4,363 nucleotides of DNA from a virus (IMGVR_UViG_3300029417_000050:1-4363), one strand, 5' to 3'. Counted from the first letter of the stretch, positions 1 through 4,351 are shown. A program made the numbers and translations. The notes: a model not told the origin generated them from the sequence alone.

Positions 1-345
1 GTACTGACCGTTTTCGTCAGTGGTGCCGATGATATTGGAAACGGTCTGCGCGAGTTTCGCTTCCTCGTCGTCGCCGGTGCCGTCTTCCACACGCACGACA
101 ACGGTGACCGGTTTTGACTGGTCGGCGATGGCCTGCAACGATGCCGCCAGCGTGCCTTTTTTACCGGCCTTTGCAATTGCGCTCTGCACATTGGTAATCA
201 GCACCGGTTTATTGAGGGGGAAGGTTTCCGCATCCGCATCGCTGGCCGTGCAGACCATGCCGACAATGGCGGTGGATACGGTGGAAATGACGCGGGTGCC
301 GTCGTTAATCTCCAGCACCTGCACGCCGTGATGATAGTCACTCAT
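1..345 (-). CDS. FI: Phage tail sheath protein, N-terminal 115 codons (P2 gpFI-like); gene continues beyond window start
   Basis: Reverse-complement of 1..345 translates without stops from ATG at 345..343: [115 protein letters not shown]. From memory this matches the N-terminus of P2-type tail sheath proteins. GGAG lies about 8 nt upstream of the ATG (355..352 on minus strand). Absent from the ORF track because no stop falls inside the window. Confidence 0.8.
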
Positions 346-404: not shown

Positions 405-998
405 CTATTTGTCCCGGTTGGCTAAGGGATGACACAATTTATTTTTTGTCACGGAGGCGGGGAATTTTTTATAGAGCGTGGACAGGCCAATATCAAAAAT
501 CAGTGCCACGCGTTGACGTGATTCCCCTGCAGCCAACAACCGCCCGGCCTGCTCCCACTCACTCGCGGTGAGTTTCGGACGTCTGCCACCAATACGACCT
601 TTAGCTCTGGCCGCTTCCAGTCCGGCGCGAGTCCGCTCGACAATGAGTTCTCGTTCCATTTCAGCCAGGGCACCCATCACATGAAAGAAAAAACGTCCCA
701 TCGGCGTGCTGGTATCAATGGCATCCGTCAGGCTGCGAAAATTAACGCCGCGTTCGCGCAGTTCCTCAACCAGAATGACCAGATGCCGCATACTACGCCC
801 CAGCCTGTCCAGCTTCCAGACCACCAGAGTGTCACCTGCTGATAATGTTCTGAGCAGTTTTTTCAGTCCCGGTCGGTCGGACTTCGTGCCGCTGATTTTA
901 TCCTCAAAAATCAGCTCACATCCTGCACACTCCAGCGCGTTACGCTGCAATTCCGTGTTCTGGTCATTTGTTGACACGCGCACATAGCCAATAAGCAT
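405..998 (-). CDS. Serine-recombinase DNA invertase (Gin/Pin/Cin/Hin family)
   Basis: Protein begins MLIGYVRVSTNDQNTELQRNAL (catalytic-serine 'VRVSTNDQ' motif of resolvase/invertase N-terminal domain), followed by GDTLVVWKLDRLGRS, MGRFFFHVMGALAEMERELIVERT and a C-terminal helix-turn-helix region (GRRPKL...ALIFDIGLSTLYKK). About 197 aa is the typical size for this family. Start is placed at ATG 998 because AGGGGG (1010..1005) sits 6 nt upstream; the ORF track's ATG at 1004 is directly adjacent to that motif. Stop TAG at 407..405. Confidence 0.93.
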   Translation of the reverse strand: MLIGYVRVSTNDQNTELQRNALECAGCELIFEDKISGTKSDRPGLKKLLRTLSAGDTLVVWKLDRLGRSMRHLVILVEELRERGVNFRSLTDAIDTSTPMGRFFFHVMGALAEMERELIVERTRAGLEAARAKGRIGGRRPKLTASEWEQAGRLLAAGESRQRVALIFDIGLSTLYKKFPASVTKNKLCHPLANRDK

Positions 999-1025
999 GA
1001 GCATCCCCCTGAATAAAAACCGGAG

Positions 1026-1400
1026 ATGATGCCAGTTGCCCGTTATCTCTGCATTTTCATAAACGTTGGTTTGGGAGAAGCGGCGAAAAGGAATGTGGGG
1101 ACTGGGGCGAATCAGATACCTGATATGTCATCATATGCATCAGGTTCAGGCTGGCGAAAAATGCCAGATGGTTCAATTGAACAGTGGGGAGGAATTCGTT
1201 TTCCTGGTGAACACGAGCCTGTATCCGCCAATGTTTCATTCCCAATTCCATTTACACAGACACCGGACATTATAATTGTGTTCGATGGTGGTTTCGGGGG
1301 CGGGAATATGTGGGGGGCGACCAACTGGAGCACTACCGGCTTCATAGCTCACTGCAATTATGGTCTTGAAGGTGGTGCGTTTTTCGCTAAGGGCTGGTAA
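1026..1400 (+). CDS. Silent alternative tail-fiber C-terminal cassette (Sv'-like); no own start, functional part begins at the crossover (about 1066/1080) and encodes 106 aa after the shared GLGE
   Basis: Frame is open from 1026 but the ATGATG at 1026 has GGAG directly abutting it with no spacer and sits in the site/invertase intergenic region. The frame passes through the crossover site encoding VGLGE in the same frame as LGLGE in the expressed fiber. Ends TAA 1398..1400, overlapping the next ATG (TAATG) of a tail-fiber assembly gene. Gly/Trp-rich C-terminus ([15 protein letters not shown]) is consistent with a fiber tip. Confidence 0.65.
1054..1079. repeat. 26-bp invertase crossover site, invertase-proximal (gix/hix/pix-like)
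   Basis: Sequence ttttcataaacg-tt-ggtttgggagaa. The right half ggtttgggagaa resembles the conserved GGTTTT-GATAA half-site of gix/hix sites as I recall them. The 15-bp ttggtttgggagaag (1066..1080) is a perfect inverted copy of 2903..2917. Lies 55 bp upstream of the invertase start, as in Mu/P1/e14. Confidence 0.72.
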
Positions 1401-1843
1401 TGATGAAATATCTGTACGTAAACAACCTGGCATATCCTTACGAACTTCAGTCTCTTTATGTTGAAAAAGGTGAATGGCCTGAAGAAAAAGGTGTTGATAT
1501 AGACGAAGTAATTTTCAGGGAATATTTCTATGATACACCACCAGAAGGAAAATACAGATGTGTCGGAGAGGATGGACTGCCTGCATGGGCAGATATTCCT
1601 CCACCAACACGTGAAGAACAAATTGCATCAGCCGAAACTAAAAAGCAGCAATTGATTAACCAGGCCAACGAATACATCAACAGTAAACAATGGCCAGGTA
1701 AAGCATCAATTGGTCGTCTGAAAGGTGAGGAACTGGCGCAATATAATTTGTGGCTGGATTATCTGGACGCACTGGAGCTGGTCGATACTTCCAGTGCACC
1801 AGATATTGAATGGCCTACTCCTCCGGCAGTTCAGGCCAGATGA
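1400..1843 (+). CDS. Tail fiber assembly protein (chaperone), cognate to the silent cassette (U'-like)
   Basis: 147 aa. C-terminus LWLDYLDALELVDTSSAPDIEWPTPP matches the conserved Tfa C-terminal motif, compare AVLDYIDAVTATDTSTAPDVIWPELP in the convergent gene. Start ATG overlaps the upstream stop (TAATG). Antisense to the late structural operon in this orientation. Confidence 0.85.
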   Translation: MMKYLYVNNLAYPYELQSLYVEKGEWPEEKGVDIDEVIFREYFYDTPPEGKYRCVGEDGLPAWADIPPPTREEQIASAETKKQQLINQANEYINSKQWPGKASIGRLKGEELAQYNLWLDYLDALELVDTSSAPDIEWPTPPAVQAR

Positions 1844-2417
1844 CATCCGGCGCGGTGCTGGTATCTGTTGCCGTCACCGCGTCAATGTAATCCAGCACGG
1901 CGTTAAGTCGGGTTGTTTCTGCCTGCGTCAACTTCCGTCCGGCCTGTAATTTCAGCTGAATCAGACTAATGGAAGCCATTGCTGCATTAATCAGTGACTG
2001 GCGCTGTGCTTCTGCCGCGTCTAGTGCGGCGCTATGCTGTGCCTCGGTATCCGTCACCCATTTCTCACCATCCCATTTATCGTATGGCGTTAATGGGGCG
2101 ATAGTGGTTGTATTTTCAGGGTAATCACCCGGAACTGTGATTTCTTTGGTATCTCCCGTTTCGGTACTATAGACAACTTCACCGCGATGGTCTGGCACAT
2201 ATTCCCATGAATTTAAATCTACAGAGCGACAGATTGCATAACCAGCTTTATGTGTACCTGGTGCATCCAGACAGGAACATGCCGGGATACCGACGCCGAC
2301 AGCGAGATATTCAGTTGATGTAGAAATATATTCCCGCGTTTCGCCATCATAGTTATGTACGATGATTTCCCCATCATTTAAAGCGTAACCGTCTTTTCCC
2401 AAAATAGCCTGTTCCAT
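1815..2417 (-). CDS. Tail fiber assembly protein (chaperone), cognate to the expressed fiber (Mu U / P2 G / lambda Tfa family)
   Basis: 200 aa. Conserved Tfa C-terminal motif RLNAVLDYIDAVTATDTSTAPDVIWPELPEE. ATG 2417..2415 immediately follows the fiber stop TAA 2420..2418 (TAAATG). Stop TAG 1817..1815. Confidence 0.88.
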   Translation of the reverse strand: MEQAILGKDGYALNDGEIIVHNYDGETREYISTSTEYLAVGVGIPACSCLDAPGTHKAGYAICRSVDLNSWEYVPDHRGEVVYSTETGDTKEITVPGDYPENTTTIAPLTPYDKWDGEKWVTDTEAQHSAALDAAEAQRQSLINAAMASISLIQLKLQAGRKLTQAETTRLNAVLDYIDAVTATDTSTAPDVIWPELPEE

Positions 2418-3743
2418 TTATGCAGCCCTCACAATGTAGTTAAATGCAATGTTTCGCGGGCTACCATCACCGGCGCCGGAACTGACATGATTGGTTCTAT
2501 CCATTCGTTTACTGTCATTTGTTGTTCCACTCCCATCCTTCCACGAATACAATATCCCGCCATCGCCAATGCTCAACTGCACCGCAAATACGGATGATGT
2601 ACCTAATTCACCAACATCTCTAGCCATGAGTGGGTTCCCTGTCCATCCATGCATTTCATGGTTATGTTCAAGGATAGATGCTGCCTGACTTGAAAGCAGC
2701 AGTCTCGCGGAATCAACACCTCGCCCATCATCCCACCCGCGAATAAACTCACCGCGCAAATCCGGTAATTTTAACTTTGGGTAAGCCTTTGCCAGTTTTG
2801 GGTACTCTTCGGCAGAAAAAGGTGCACCGTTGCATTTCAGCCAGCCTGTTGGTGGTGTGGCTGAAGGCCACGGAACAGGCACACCAACGGGTAACGCTGA
2901 GCCTTCTCCCAAACCAAGGTATGCGAGAAGACCGGCAACATCCTTTCCACTCAAATGAGTCAGCGTCTCATCCAGTGGCTGCTTACCTGACAGCGCATTG
3001 TTAATGGTGGTGCTGAATTTCGGGTCATTGTTAATGGCCGCGGCAATTTCTTTCAGTGTGTCCAGTGTGGCTGGCGCACCGTTAATCAGAGCGGTAATAG
3101 CGGCCTGTACAAACGCAGTGGTCGCAATCCGCGTGGTGTTATTTCCTGCGGCAGGCGTCGGCGCTTTTGGTTCTCCGGTAAATGTCGGATTATGTTTCTG
3201 TGCATACTGGGTATGAGGGTCCTGTGCGGCAATGTGTTTTCTCATCTGGTCATCCACATACAGCCTTAATTCCAGGACTTCATCATCCACGTATTTACGG
3301 GTCGCCAATACCACCGACGGGTCGATTTTCAGCGTAATAGCTTCGGTATTCGTGACAACCAGAATCATGCGGATAGTCTGGGTACGACCACTTCCTTCCT
3401 GCAACTGCGGTTTGTACGTTTCCGGGCAGTTCGCCACCGCAATGAGTACGCCTTCATCATCATAAAGCCCAATCTCACGGATCCAGAATCCGCCCTCGTT
3501 CTCAGGGATGATTTGCTCCGCAATAATCTGGCTCTGGTTGTTCGGGTCAACACTCAGAAGATTCAGCGGTGCAATGCGTTTCTGATTAATCAGTTTTGTC
3601 TGTGCCGGGTCTGGTGTCGGCAAGACACCATTCGCATCACCAACGGCCATTTGCGTCAGATTCAGCTTACTGCCGAGCATCGTCGCGTTAGCCAGGCGTG
3701 CTGCGCCCTGATTAGTCAGAATGGCGTAGTATTTCACTGTCAT
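2418..3743 (-). CDS. Phage tail fiber protein (P2 gpH-like constant N-terminus fused to the currently expressed variable C-terminus)
   Basis: 441 aa. N-terminal region (MTVKYYAILTNQGAARLA...MAVGDANGVLP...GGFWIREIGLYDDEGVLIAVAN...KPQLQEGSGRTQTIRMILVV) resembles the conserved N-terminal domain of P2 H-type fibers. C-terminal part contains WLKCNGAPFSAEEYPKLAKAY...LPDLRGEFIRGWDDGRGVD, a phage tail-collar-like motif. ATG 3743..3741 overlaps the stop of the upstream gene (ATGA). Confidence 0.92.
   Translation of the reverse strand: MTVKYYAILTNQGAARLANATMLGSKLNLTQMAVGDANGVLPTPDPAQTKLINQKRIAPLNLLSVDPNNQSQIIAEQIIPENEGGFWIREIGLYDDEGVLIAVANCPETYKPQLQEGSGRTQTIRMILVVTNTEAITLKIDPSVVLATRKYVDDEVLELRLYVDDQMRKHIAAQDPHTQYAQKHNPTFTGEPKAPTPAAGNNTTRIATTAFVQAAITALINGAPATLDTLKEIAAAINNDPKFSTTINNALSGKQPLDETLTHLSGKDVAGLLAYLGLGEGSALPVGVPVPWPSATPPTGWLKCNGAPFSAEEYPKLAKAYPKLKLPDLRGEFIRGWDDGRGVDSARLLLSSQAASILEHNHEMHGWTGNPLMARDVGELGTSSVFAVQLSIGDGGILYSWKDGSGTTNDSKRMDRTNHVSSGAGDGSPRNIAFNYIVRAA
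2904..2929. repeat. 26-bp invertase crossover site inside the tail-fiber gene (constant/variable junction, codons about 272-280)
   Basis: Plus strand ttctcccaaacc-aa-ggtatgcgagaa; its reverse complement ttctcgcatacc-tt-ggtttgggagaa shares the core tt plus the right half-site exactly with 1054..1079, and 7 of 12 positions in the other half. Encodes LLAYLGLGE in the fiber. Confidence 0.72.
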
Positions 3744-4351
3744 GCGTTTACTCTCAGGTTATCAATTAAATGAATGGCCGAGGCCGGGAAATAATCCCCT
3801 CCGACAATAATGGCCTCCGGGGTGTAGGGATAAACCGTCAGGGCGTCACCGTGATAGCATCCCGCACCGGCAAAAATGTTGCCGGTTGTACTTAAGCTGA
3901 TAGCCAGTCCCGTCAGATGGCGGCTTGCCGGTTTTGCATCAGCAACGAGGCGCTCCAGCTCCTGATACATTTCCTCGGTAATACCCTGCTCAAGCACACC
4001 AACAACGATGCGGAACGTCCCCGGCTCCTCGTTGAGTTGCCACCACTCCCTCACCTCAATCAGATAGCCGAGCGGCTCCACCACACGCCGGATTGCGCCT
4101 ATAGTGCCCTTATGGCAGTGAATGAAATACGCATCGCGGATAACAGCGCGTTTTGTCGCTTCCGGCCACTTATCATCCCAGCGGTCAACCGAAAATGACC
4201 ACGCCAGCCACGGCAGCAGATTTGCCGGACAGGTATCCGGGTTCCACAGTTCACGAATCCTGACCGGCGTTTTTTCAATTTCCGCACAGGCTTTTGCGGC
4301 GGCAACTTCAAGCGGTGATGAGCCGGTCGGCAGCAGTCGCGAATCACTCAT
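3740..4351 (-). CDS. Phage baseplate/tail protein (P2 gpI-like)
   Basis: 203-aa ORF directly upstream of, and translationally coupled to, the H-like fiber gene (ATGA overlap at 3743..3740), which is the position gpI holds in P2-like tail clusters. GGAGG (4360..4356 on minus strand) lies 4 nt upstream of ATG 4351..4349. Family assignment is from context and recalled similarity, not a search. Confidence 0.78.
   Translation of the reverse strand: MSDSRLLPTGSSPLEVAAAKACAEIEKTPVRIRELWNPDTCPANLLPWLAWSFSVDRWDDKWPEATKRAVIRDAYFIHCHKGTIGAIRRVVEPLGYLIEVREWWQLNEEPGTFRIVVGVLEQGITEEMYQELERLVADAKPASRHLTGLAISLSTTGNIFAGAGCYHGDALTVYPYTPEAIIVGGDYFPASAIHLIDNLRVNA

What the first reader, a model, noticed from the sequence alone, without database searches (positions are those of the whole stretch)
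405..2929. Complete tail-fiber inversion switch: invertase plus about 1.9-kb invertible segment
All parts of a Gin/Pin/Cin-type host-range switch are present: a serine invertase (998..405), a crossover site 55 bp upstream of it (1054..1079), a second inverted site inside the fiber gene (2904..2929), and between them two fiber C-termini with their own chaperones in opposite orientations. In the orientation captured here the 441-aa fiber and the 200-aa chaperone are expressed; flipping would express the other pair. This is seen directly in the sequence, but the family is well known, so it is an instance of an established mechanism rather than a new one.
Basis: partly seen in the sequence, partly recalled or inferred. 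Interest (0 to 1): 0.8.

Follow-up and report, generated by a model that had tools for sequence, protein, structure and literature searches.

The report
Invertible tail-fibre switch in P2-like prophage
This is a real and complete DNA flip-switch that lets a P2-like prophage of E. coli alternate between two tail-fibre tips (and so, presumably, two host ranges), but it is an ordinary, widespread and already described member of the Gin/Pin/Cin/Hin family.

Summary
A 197-aa serine invertase (998..405) has the catalytic Ser9. It is 88% identical to e14 Pin and 77% to Mu Gin. It sits 55 bp from a 26-bp crossover site (1054-1079) that is 26/26 identical to the e14 site beside pinE. A second, inverted site (2904-2929) lies inside the tail-fibre gene. 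The 1850-bp segment between the cores carries two fibre tips, each with its own chaperone, in opposite orientations. Flipping in silico gives an in-frame 386-aa fibre in place of the 441-aa one. Public genomes stand in for the read-mapping test. The flipped arrangement occurs contiguously in E. coli EA2 and NCTC9040. The two orientations are about equally common (121 vs 101 complete genomes). Two O157:H7 isolates carry 5196-bp loci that become identical, with 0 mismatches, once the segment between the homologous sites is reverse-complemented. The breakpoint maps to the 15-16 nt shared stretch that holds the core dinucleotide. The element is a P2-like prophage with the switch in the known Z/fun cargo slot between the chaperone gene G and the sheath gene FI. 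Inversion in P2-like E. coli prophages has already been shown experimentally (PMC4272514). Only the Fis enhancer and the host-range effect remain inferred. The finding is correct but already known, so interest is low.

The parts
405..998 (-). Serine DNA invertase, 197 aa (Pin/Gin/Cin/Hin subfamily). The catalytic Ser9 lies in YVRVSTNDQ and a C-terminal HTH is present. The basic helix-B residues are K46, K47 and R50.
   Evidence: Pfam Resolvase 3e-52 plus HTH_7 5.6e-13. Mu Gin structures 3UJ3/4M6F match at E=1.7e-94 over residues 1-182. Identity is 88% to e14 PinE, 79% to P1 Cin and 77% to Mu Gin. The helix-B motif was checked.
909..980 (-). Presumed recombinational enhancer (sis, Fis-dependent): invertase codons 7-30, homologous to the enhancer annotated in P1 cin.
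   Evidence: The P1 record annotates the enhancer at cin nt 19-90. The window is 76-86% identical to pin, gin and cin here, against 67-78% in the rest of the gene. Two G-N13-C 15-mers are conserved in the lineages. The planned synonymous-site test was not significant (p=0.31), so this part is inferred.
1054..1079 (.). Invertase-proximal crossover site, TTTTCATAAACG TT GGTTTGGGAGAA. The core dinucleotide is 1066-1067.
   Evidence: The site is 26/26 identical to the e14 site next to pinE. The breakpoint in flipped relatives maps to 1066-1080.
1067..2916 (.). Invertible segment, 1850 bp core to core.
   Evidence: In silico flip. The flipped arrangement is found contiguously in E. coli EA2 (100% coverage, 96.9% identity, one piece) and NCTC9040. 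The segment parts are on the opposite strand to the flanks in L002 and L003.
1068..1400 (+). Silent alternative fibre C-terminus (gp53-like C domain, about 111 aa). It has no start codon of its own inside the segment and is fused to the constant part after a flip. The mechanical ORF 1026-1400 starts outside the segment.
   Evidence: Pfam Gp53-like_C 6.9e-07. In-frame fusion. Weakly similar to the e14 StfP C-terminus.
1400..1843 (+). Silent alternative tail-fibre assembly chaperone, 147 aa (TfaP-like).
   Evidence: Pfam Caudo_TAP 9.6e-34. 60% identical to e14 TfaP over the C-terminal 98 aa.
1815..2417 (-). Chaperone in the expressed orientation, 200 aa (TfaE-like). Its 3' end overlaps the other chaperone gene tail to tail by 29 bp.
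   Evidence: Pfam Caudo_TAP 1.3e-31. 87% identical to e14 TfaE.
2418..2916 (-). Variable fibre C-terminus in the expressed orientation (collar domain, StfE-type, about 166 aa).
   Evidence: Pfam Collar 1.9e-14 at residues 287-334 of the 441-aa fibre. 51% identical to the e14 stfE fragment.
2904..2929 (.). Distal crossover site inside the fibre gene, TTCTCCCAAACC AA GGTATGCGAGAA. The core dinucleotide is 2916-2917. It encodes ...LLAYLGLGE...
   Evidence: It resembles the other e14 site, TTCTCGAAAACCTTGGTTTGGGAGAA.
2917..3743 (-). Constant N-terminal part of tail fibre gene H (about 275 aa), shared by both fibre forms.
   Evidence: Pfam Phage_tail_fib 2.6e-62 at residues 1-150. Translations of both states.
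414..444 (-). Sequence homologous to the Ogr-type activator binding site of the P2 P_F late promoter. It lies inside the last ~13 codons of the invertase ORF and marks the junction of the cassette with the P2 backbone.
   Evidence: Alignment with the annotated P2 region.
1..345 (-). Context: N-terminal part of tail sheath gene FI.
   Evidence: Pfam Gp18_domIII_N. Annotation of relatives.
3740..4351 (-). Context: baseplate gene I (Tail_P2_I), upstream of the fibre gene in the same late operon.
   Evidence: Pfam Tail_P2_I 4e-56.

Best explanation
This is a two-site, Pin/Gin-type site-specific inversion switch in the tail module of a P2-like (Peduovirus) prophage of E. coli. The invertase binds as dimers to the two 26-bp sites. 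With host Fis bound to an enhancer inside the 5' end of its own gene (inferred), the dimers form a synaptic tetramer. It cuts both sites at the central AA/TT dinucleotide through Ser9, rotates one half by 180 degrees and religates. This turns the 1850-bp segment around. The constant 5' part of fibre gene H (about 275 codons, driven by the late operon promoter upstream of the window) is therefore joined in frame to one of two tips. One is a collar-domain tip followed by a TfaE-like chaperone; this is the captured state, with a 441-aa fibre. The other is a gp53-like tip followed by a TfaP-like chaperone; this is the flipped state, with a 386-aa fibre. Virions made from the two states should carry different receptor-binding tips and adsorb to different hosts. 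Shown here: the parts, the in-frame fusion, the family assignment, and precise inversion at these sites in natural populations. Inferred: Fis/enhancer dependence, expression, and the host-range consequence.
For: Parts and domains. The sites are above chance and there are only two. In-frame flip. The invertase aligns end to end with Mu Gin and has Ser9; it is 88% identical to Pin. The proximal site is identical to the e14 pix site. The flipped arrangement is contiguous in EA2 and NCTC9040, with 121 vs 101 genomes per orientation. Breakpoints lie inside the shared 15 nt that contain the core. The O157:H7 pair is identical after flipping, 0 mismatches in 5196 bp. Both fusion ORFs are intact in that clone. 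The identical invertase sits beside the segment in both orientations in other assemblies. Inversion in P2-like prophages of E. coli E2348/69 was shown experimentally by sequencing (PMC4272514).
Against: There are no reads from the source sample, so inversion of this particular copy is not shown. All six exact or near-exact copies retrieved (L010-L015) are in the captured orientation, but they were retrieved through the captured-state fibre protein, so that sample is biased. Enhancer conservation beyond protein-coding constraint was not significant in the planned test. The candidate Fis cores are 49 bp apart; I recall a 48-bp spacing for Hin, but that is from memory and was not confirmed in the papers read. 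No convincing promoter for the invertase was found. In the 99.75%-identical copies L010 and L011 the prophage appears to lack head and lysis genes, so a host-range function may be moot there.
Confidence: 0.93

Rival explanations
1. The switch is anatomically complete but frozen in this copy. The invertase is not expressed or its enhancer is defective, so the segment no longer flips and the second cassette is a silent fossil.
For: All retrieved exact or near-exact copies are in one orientation. No clear sigma-70 promoter lies upstream of the invertase. The enhancer test was inconclusive.
Against: All ORFs are intact and both sites keep identical inner halves and cores. The copies were retrieved through the captured-state protein, which biases orientation. 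The identical invertase protein lies beside segments in both orientations elsewhere. A 97.9%-identical relative is in the flipped state.
Confidence: 0.04
2. The main selected function lies in the lysogen rather than the virion. Inversion, by this invertase or by a related one acting in trans, creates a fibre-derived protein that alters the cell surface or blocks adsorption of other phages. This was reported for PinQ, the e14 P segment and StfE2. A variant of this rival is that the element is a defective prophage or tailocin remnant.
For: PMC12529663 reports such an effect for the homologous e14 segment. The segment genes are of the e14 types and the proximal site is identical to the e14 site, so cross-action is plausible. 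L010 and L011 suggest a prophage lacking head and lysis genes.
Against: The fibre gene sits in a normal P2 late tail operon with baseplate, sheath, tube and tape-measure genes intact. Nothing here shows expression in the lysogen. This rival does not exclude the host-range function.
Confidence: 0.03
3. The inverted repeat is a chance match or an assembly artefact, and the two cassettes arose by duplication without any inversion.
For: The repeat is short (27 nt, 81%), and other chance repeats of similar length occur in the window.
Against: The 14-mer is expected 0.01 times by chance. The site is identical to a known pix site. Reciprocal exchange occurs exactly at the sites in independent complete genomes.
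Confidence: 0.003

Closest known systems
P segment / PinE of the cryptic prophage e14 (E. coli K-12)
   Same: This is the closest invertase (88% aa identity). The invertase-proximal site is identical (26/26) and the distal site is very similar. The gene order is the same: fibre constant part, site, tip plus chaperone, inverted chaperone plus tip, site, invertase. The cassette types are the same, with TfaE 87% identical, a collar-type StfE tip and a TfaP-like chaperone. The segment sizes are similar, 1850 bp here against 1797 bp reported for e14 (PMC12529663).
   Different: The host element is a P2-like myovirus tail module, not the lambdoid remnant e14. The constant part is a P2 H-type N-terminus (Phage_tail_fib). 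The gp53-like tip is only weakly related to StfP. The invertase carries a 13-aa C-terminal tail read from P2 promoter DNA.
G segment / Gin of phage Mu
   Same: The mechanism and layout are the same (S constant part, gixL, Sv U / U' Sv', gixR, gin). The invertase is 77% identical and aligns with the solved Gin structures over 182 residues. The sites are 26 bp with the AAACC..GGTTT half-site pattern.
   Different: The Mu core dinucleotide is GA, whereas here it is AA. The G segment is about 3 kb. The tips and chaperones are different families.
C segment / Cin of phage P1 (and Min of p15B)
   Same: The invertase is 79% identical. The enhancer annotated in P1 lies at the homologous position in the gene.
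   Different: In P1, cin lies on the other side of the segment and ends at cixL. The C segment is 4.2 kb. p15B has six sites, from my own knowledge, whereas this window has two.
Invertible tail-fibre loci of P2-like prophages in E. coli (EPEC E2348/69, O157:H7, phage 'P2' of O157:H43 T22, pro483; Fin of Salmonella Fels-2, the last from my own knowledge)
   Same: This is the same kind of element. Phase variation by inversion in P2-like prophages was shown by sequencing (PMC4272514). Invertases are noted as frequent cargo of the P2 Z/fun hotspot (bioRxiv 10.1101/2024.10.15.618418). Deposited P2-like phages carry the same module, and OQ383618 has a 100% identical invertase.
   Different: Nothing of kind differs; only the allele combination of tips does. 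One EPEC locus has three repeats and four variants, whereas this one is the simple two-site form.

Membership tests
Fis/enhancer-dependent DNA invertases (Hin/Gin/Cin/Pin subfamily of small serine recombinases) | N-terminal serine-recombinase catalytic domain with the nucleophilic serine (Ser9 in Gin, Ser10 in Hin). | tested here: met
   Pfam Resolvase 3e-52. YVRVSTNDQ aligns with Gin residues 5-13, and Ser9 is invariant in Pin, Gin and Cin.
Fis/enhancer-dependent DNA invertases (Hin/Gin/Cin/Pin subfamily of small serine recombinases) | Small size (about 190 aa) with a C-terminal helix-turn-helix DNA-binding domain. | tested here: met
   197 aa, with HTH_7 at residues 140-183. It aligns with Gin up to residue 182.
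Fis/enhancer-dependent DNA invertases (Hin/Gin/Cin/Pin subfamily of small serine recombinases) | Two 26-bp crossover sites in inverted orientation. Each is an imperfect dyad around a 2-bp core, and the cores are identical when the sites are read in the same sense. | tested here: met
   The sites are 1054-1079 and 2904-2929 and the cores are TT and AA on the + strand. The 14-mer is expected 0.01 times by chance. The proximal site is identical to e14 pix, and Mu gix shows the same pattern.
Fis/enhancer-dependent DNA invertases (Hin/Gin/Cin/Pin subfamily of small serine recombinases) | A cis-acting recombinational enhancer with two Fis sites, located in the 5' part of the invertase gene. | tested here: inconclusive
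   The region homologous to the annotated P1 enhancer (window 980..909) is better conserved than the rest of the gene, and two G-N13-C cores are conserved. However, synonymous-site conservation in codons 7-30 against the rest gave p=0.31. A post hoc test on two flanking peaks gave p=0.001 but was not pre-planned. Fis binding cannot be tested with these tools.
Fis/enhancer-dependent DNA invertases (Hin/Gin/Cin/Pin subfamily of small serine recombinases) | Basic helix-B surface that contacts enhancer DNA (Hin Lys47, Arg48, Lys51; PMC3798978). | tested here: met
   GLKKLLRTL has K46, K47 and R50 at the equivalent positions, as in Pin and Cin.
Fis/enhancer-dependent DNA invertases (Hin/Gin/Cin/Pin subfamily of small serine recombinases) | The enzyme catalyses inversion, not deletion, of the DNA between the sites. 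| tested here: met
   Tested indirectly. Natural relatives differ by a precise conservative inversion at the homologous sites, with 0 mismatches in 5196 bp after the flip in two O157:H7 isolates. The flipped state is contiguous in EA2 and NCTC9040. It was not tested for this exact copy.
Phage tail-fibre host-range inversion switches (Mu G, P1 C, e14 P type) | One site lies inside the fibre gene, so that a constant N-terminal part is fused in frame to alternative C-termini. | tested here: met
   Both fusions are open: 441 aa and 386 aa. In a relative they are 499 aa and 473 aa.
Phage tail-fibre host-range inversion switches (Mu G, P1 C, e14 P type) | Each alternative tip is followed by its own assembly chaperone, and the two pairs are in opposite orientation. 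| tested here: met
   Two Caudo_TAP genes converge tail to tail between the two tips.
Phage tail-fibre host-range inversion switches (Mu G, P1 C, e14 P type) | The two orientations give particles with different adsorption specificity. | not testable with these tools
   Inferred from the different tip domains, Collar and Gp53-like_C, and from Mu and P1 precedent.
P2-like phages (Peduovirus) tail module | Gene order W-J-I-H-G ... FI-FII-E-T, with an accessory cargo slot (Z/fun) between G and FI and the P_F promoter before FI. | tested here: met
   Tail_P2_I, the fibre, the chaperone and the sheath lie in this order. The full modules are seen in relatives. The P_F region is near-identical to P2 from window ~425 to the FI start.

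The most novel reading that the evidence does not exclude
The invertase-proximal site is base-for-base the e14 pix site and the cassettes are of the e14 types. This prophage's invertase and the resident Pin-family invertases (PinE, PinQ and others) may therefore flip each other's segments in trans. One fibre fusion made in the lysogen might then act like StfE2 and block adsorption of unrelated phages, making the switch a phase-variable host defence rather than only a virion host-range device. Nothing here tests expression or defence. Cross-complementation among Gin, Cin, Pin and Hin is established knowledge, but a defence role for a P2-like module is not.
Probability: 0.07. Interest if true: 0.5.

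Novelty: already known. Interest (0 to 1): 0.12.

Why it matters
As a discovery it matters little. It is one more copy of a textbook mechanism, in a prophage family where the switch is common and has been shown experimentally to flip. The practical points are these. Assemblies capture one arbitrary orientation. Annotation pipelines then mis-call the silent tip as a free-standing gene, or call the flipped fibre a pseudogene. Host-range prediction for P2-like phages and tailocins should consider both fibre forms. The near-equal frequency of both states in complete genomes, and the exact flip within the O157:H7 clone, show the switch is active in nature.

Tried and rejected
(1) NCBIfam gave no invertase-specific family above its cut-off; only distant serine-recombinase models scored, all far below threshold, and nothing matched the fibre or chaperones. 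(2) The sigma-70 promoter scan was uninformative, with 6 sites against 4.9 expected and none placed convincingly upstream of the invertase. The terminator-like hits (12 vs 4.6 expected) include a weak hairpin at 1037..1018 between the site and the invertase start, which I did not pursue. (3) The planned synonymous-site test for the enhancer was not significant. The post hoc two-peak version is reported only as a hint. (4) An exact 40-mer scan of species-representative genomes found nothing. The source was instead located by exact-protein look-up. (5) I searched for extra crossover sites that would make this a multi-inversion system like the three-repeat EPEC locus or p15B Min; there are none at up to 7 mismatches in 26. 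(6) I first thought some fetched loci had not reached the sandbox. In fact several records share one file, and the analyses were redone. (7) Structure prediction and the large protein searches were not run, because sequence-level identification was unambiguous.


Full report
OBSERVATION. The window is the tail module of a P2-like prophage, with all late genes on the minus strand. In order these are baseplate gene I (4351..3740), tail-fibre gene H (3743..2418, 441 aa), a chaperone (2417..1815, 200 aa), a serine recombinase (998..405), and the start of sheath gene FI (345..1). On the plus strand lie a second chaperone (1400..1843, 147 aa) and a fibre C-terminal fragment (to 1400). The longest inverted repeat in the window is 1054-1080 / 2903-2929. 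Read as 26-mers the sites are TTTTCATAAACG-TT-GGTTTGGGAGAA and TTCTCCCAAACC-AA-GGTATGCGAGAA. The halves facing into the segment, together with the core, are perfect reverse complements (14/14), and the arms match 21/26 overall. The 14-mer occurs exactly twice, on opposite strands, where 0.01 matches are expected; none of 200 shuffles gave two. No third site exists at up to 7 mismatches in 26. The core-to-core segment is 1850 bp.

READING FRAMES. Both sites read xTT GGT TTG GGA GAA (..GLGE..) in the frame of the fibre. Reverse-complementing 1067..2916 replaces the collar-domain tip with the gp53-like tip and gives an uninterrupted 386-aa fibre followed by the 147-aa chaperone. The mechanical ORF 1026-1400 begins at an ATG outside the segment and is not a gene in its own right.

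THE ENZYME. The 197-aa protein has Pfam Resolvase plus HTH_7. It aligns end to end with the solved Mu Gin structures (E=1.7e-94) and has the nucleophile Ser9 in YVRVSTNDQ. It is 88% identical to e14 PinE, 79% to P1 Cin and 77% to Mu Gin. The basic helix-B residues that contact enhancer DNA in Hin (PMC3798978) are present as K46, K47 and R50. All homologues start at MLIGY, which supports the start at 998 rather than the upstream ATG at 1004.

THE SITES AND CASSETTES ARE OF THE e14 TYPE. The invertase-proximal site is 26/26 identical to the site next to pinE in E. coli K-12, and the distal site closely resembles the other e14 site. The 200-aa chaperone is 87% identical to TfaE. The collar tip is 51% identical to the stfE fragment. 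The 147-aa chaperone is 60% identical to TfaP over its C-terminal part. The gp53-like tip is only weakly related to StfP. The layout, with the constant part, the segment and then the invertase all downstream in the direction of fibre transcription, is that of Mu and e14, not P1.

DOES IT FLIP? Reads were not available, so I used public genomes as a population-level test. The captured arrangement is covered at 80% or more in 121 complete E. coli genomes. An in silico flipped query is covered at 80% or more in 101 genomes, including EA2 (100% coverage, 96.9% identity, one piece) and NCTC9040 (97.9%). A wrongly oriented segment caps coverage at about 57%, so these counts separate the two states. 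At the left junction, NCTC9040 and EA2 follow the window's left flank up to ...AAACG. They then share TTGGTTTGGGAGAAG and continue as the reverse complement of the window's right junction. This places the exchange within window 1066-1080, which contains the core.

The cleanest case is within one clone. O157:H7 strains ECP19-2498 and BB24-1 carry 5196-bp loci encoding the same protein accessions in mirrored order. Their junctions are reciprocally swapped. The two loci become identical, with 0 mismatches, when the stretch between the homologous sites is reverse-complemented, and 16 equivalent breakpoint pairs span the core. Both fusion ORFs are intact there (499 and 473 aa). The identical 197-aa invertase occurs in thousands of assemblies, next to segments in both orientations and with several different cassettes. 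Inversion at these sites is therefore a recurrent, precise event in nature.

ENHANCER. P1 annotates the Cin enhancer at cin nt 19-90. The homologous stretch here is window 980..909. It is more conserved than the rest of the gene (76-86% vs 67-78% identity to pin, gin and cin). However, the planned test of synonymous-site conservation (codons 7-30 vs the rest) gave p=0.31. Two local peaks of synonymous conservation (codons 1-12 and 25-36) flank a fully variable stretch and coincide with two conserved G-N13-C 15-mers centred 49 bp apart. A post hoc test gave p=0.001. I treat Fis/enhancer dependence as inferred from homology, not shown.

CONTEXT. In canonical P2 the interval between G and FI holds the dispensable fun(Z) gene and the Ogr-activated P_F promoter. 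Here it holds the second cassette and the invertase. Homology to P2 resumes inside the last ~13 codons of the invertase ORF. The 13-aa tail that Pin lacks (…KLCHPLANRDK) is therefore encoded by the P_F activator-site region. The window is 100% identical to a contig of assembly GCA_030870405.1 and 99.75% identical to two others.

COMPARISON WITH WHAT IS KNOWN. This is the Gin/Cin/Pin/Hin mechanism, and the family features that can be tested in silico are met (see the membership table). The specific setting is also described. Goldberg et al. 2014 detected phase variation by inversion in two P2-like prophages of EPEC E2348/69, one with two variants and one with four, alongside e14 and Mu (PMC4272514). 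A 2024 survey notes that a DNA invertase, accompanied by inversion of adjacent genes, is often found in the P2 Z/fun hotspot. Deposited P2-like phages carry the same module, one with a 100% identical invertase. The only recent twist in this area is the report that inversion of the e14 segment by PinQ yields a fibre chimera that blocks T2 adsorption (PMC12529663). My data neither support nor exclude an analogous role here.

VERDICT. The mechanism is assigned with high confidence; the Fis dependence and the host-range effect are inferred. Novelty: already known. Interest is low (0.12).

Noticed in passing
window 405-444 (- strand): The invertase ORF runs about 13 codons into DNA homologous to the P2 P_F promoter's activator (Ogr) binding site. 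Its C-terminal tail (…KLCHPLANRDK), which e14 Pin lacks, is therefore encoded by the regulatory region of the next operon. This also marks the cassette/backbone junction at about 437-440.
   Followed up: partly
window 1026-1400 (+); L001 4026-4424; L002 1526-2062: RefSeq annotates the silent fibre tip as a free-standing CDS ('gp53-like domain-containing protein' or 'phage tail protein'). The CDS starts at an ATG outside the invertible segment and so spans the crossover site. This is an annotation artefact of inversion switches.
   Followed up: yes
L009 2855-4276 (E. coli O157:H7 BB24-1): In the flipped-state O157:H7 genome, PGAP marks the fibre gene as an incomplete pseudogene and adds a separate gp53-like CDS. 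Translation shows one intact 473-aa ORF.
   Followed up: yes
L010 and L011, 1-4500 (contigs 99.75% identical to the window): Upstream of the tail module the order is gpA, then small ORFs including a weak reverse-transcriptase (RVT_1) hit, then a truncated gene V (83 aa in L011), then W. The head, lysis and R/S genes expected between the old/tin hotspot and V are absent. That copy therefore looks like a defective prophage that keeps its tail genes and a retron-like cargo.
   Followed up: no
L019, L023, L024 (same invertase protein): The identical invertase flanks quite different segments. One is a 3.3-kb segment with a 602-aa fibre and a 427-aa silent tip (L019). One is a deletion variant with a 318-aa fibre and no chaperones (L023). 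One has collar-type sequence on both sides (L024). This suggests cassette exchange and decay around a constant invertase.
   Followed up: partly
window 1815-1843: The two chaperone genes converge and overlap tail to tail by 29 bp, and the C-terminal peptides are similar on both strands (…APDIEWPTPPAVQAR and …APDVIWPELPEE). The inverted repeat I3 (1753-1770 / 1879-1896) reflects this shared C-terminal motif.
   Followed up: no
window 1018-1037 (- strand): A weak terminator-like hairpin followed by a T-run lies between the proximal crossover site and the invertase start codon. It includes the TGGCATCAT stretch, most of which is conserved in e14 and Mu. It might limit read-through from the fibre operon into the invertase gene.
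   Followed up: no
L008/L009 fibre, residues ~250-310: The constant part of the O157:H7 fibre carries an extra ~58-aa repeat-like insertion (…TTAFV…AP..LDTL.E.AAA..NDP.FSTT..NAL… appears twice) relative to the window's fibre. The fibre shaft length therefore varies by duplication of a repeat unit.
   Followed up: no
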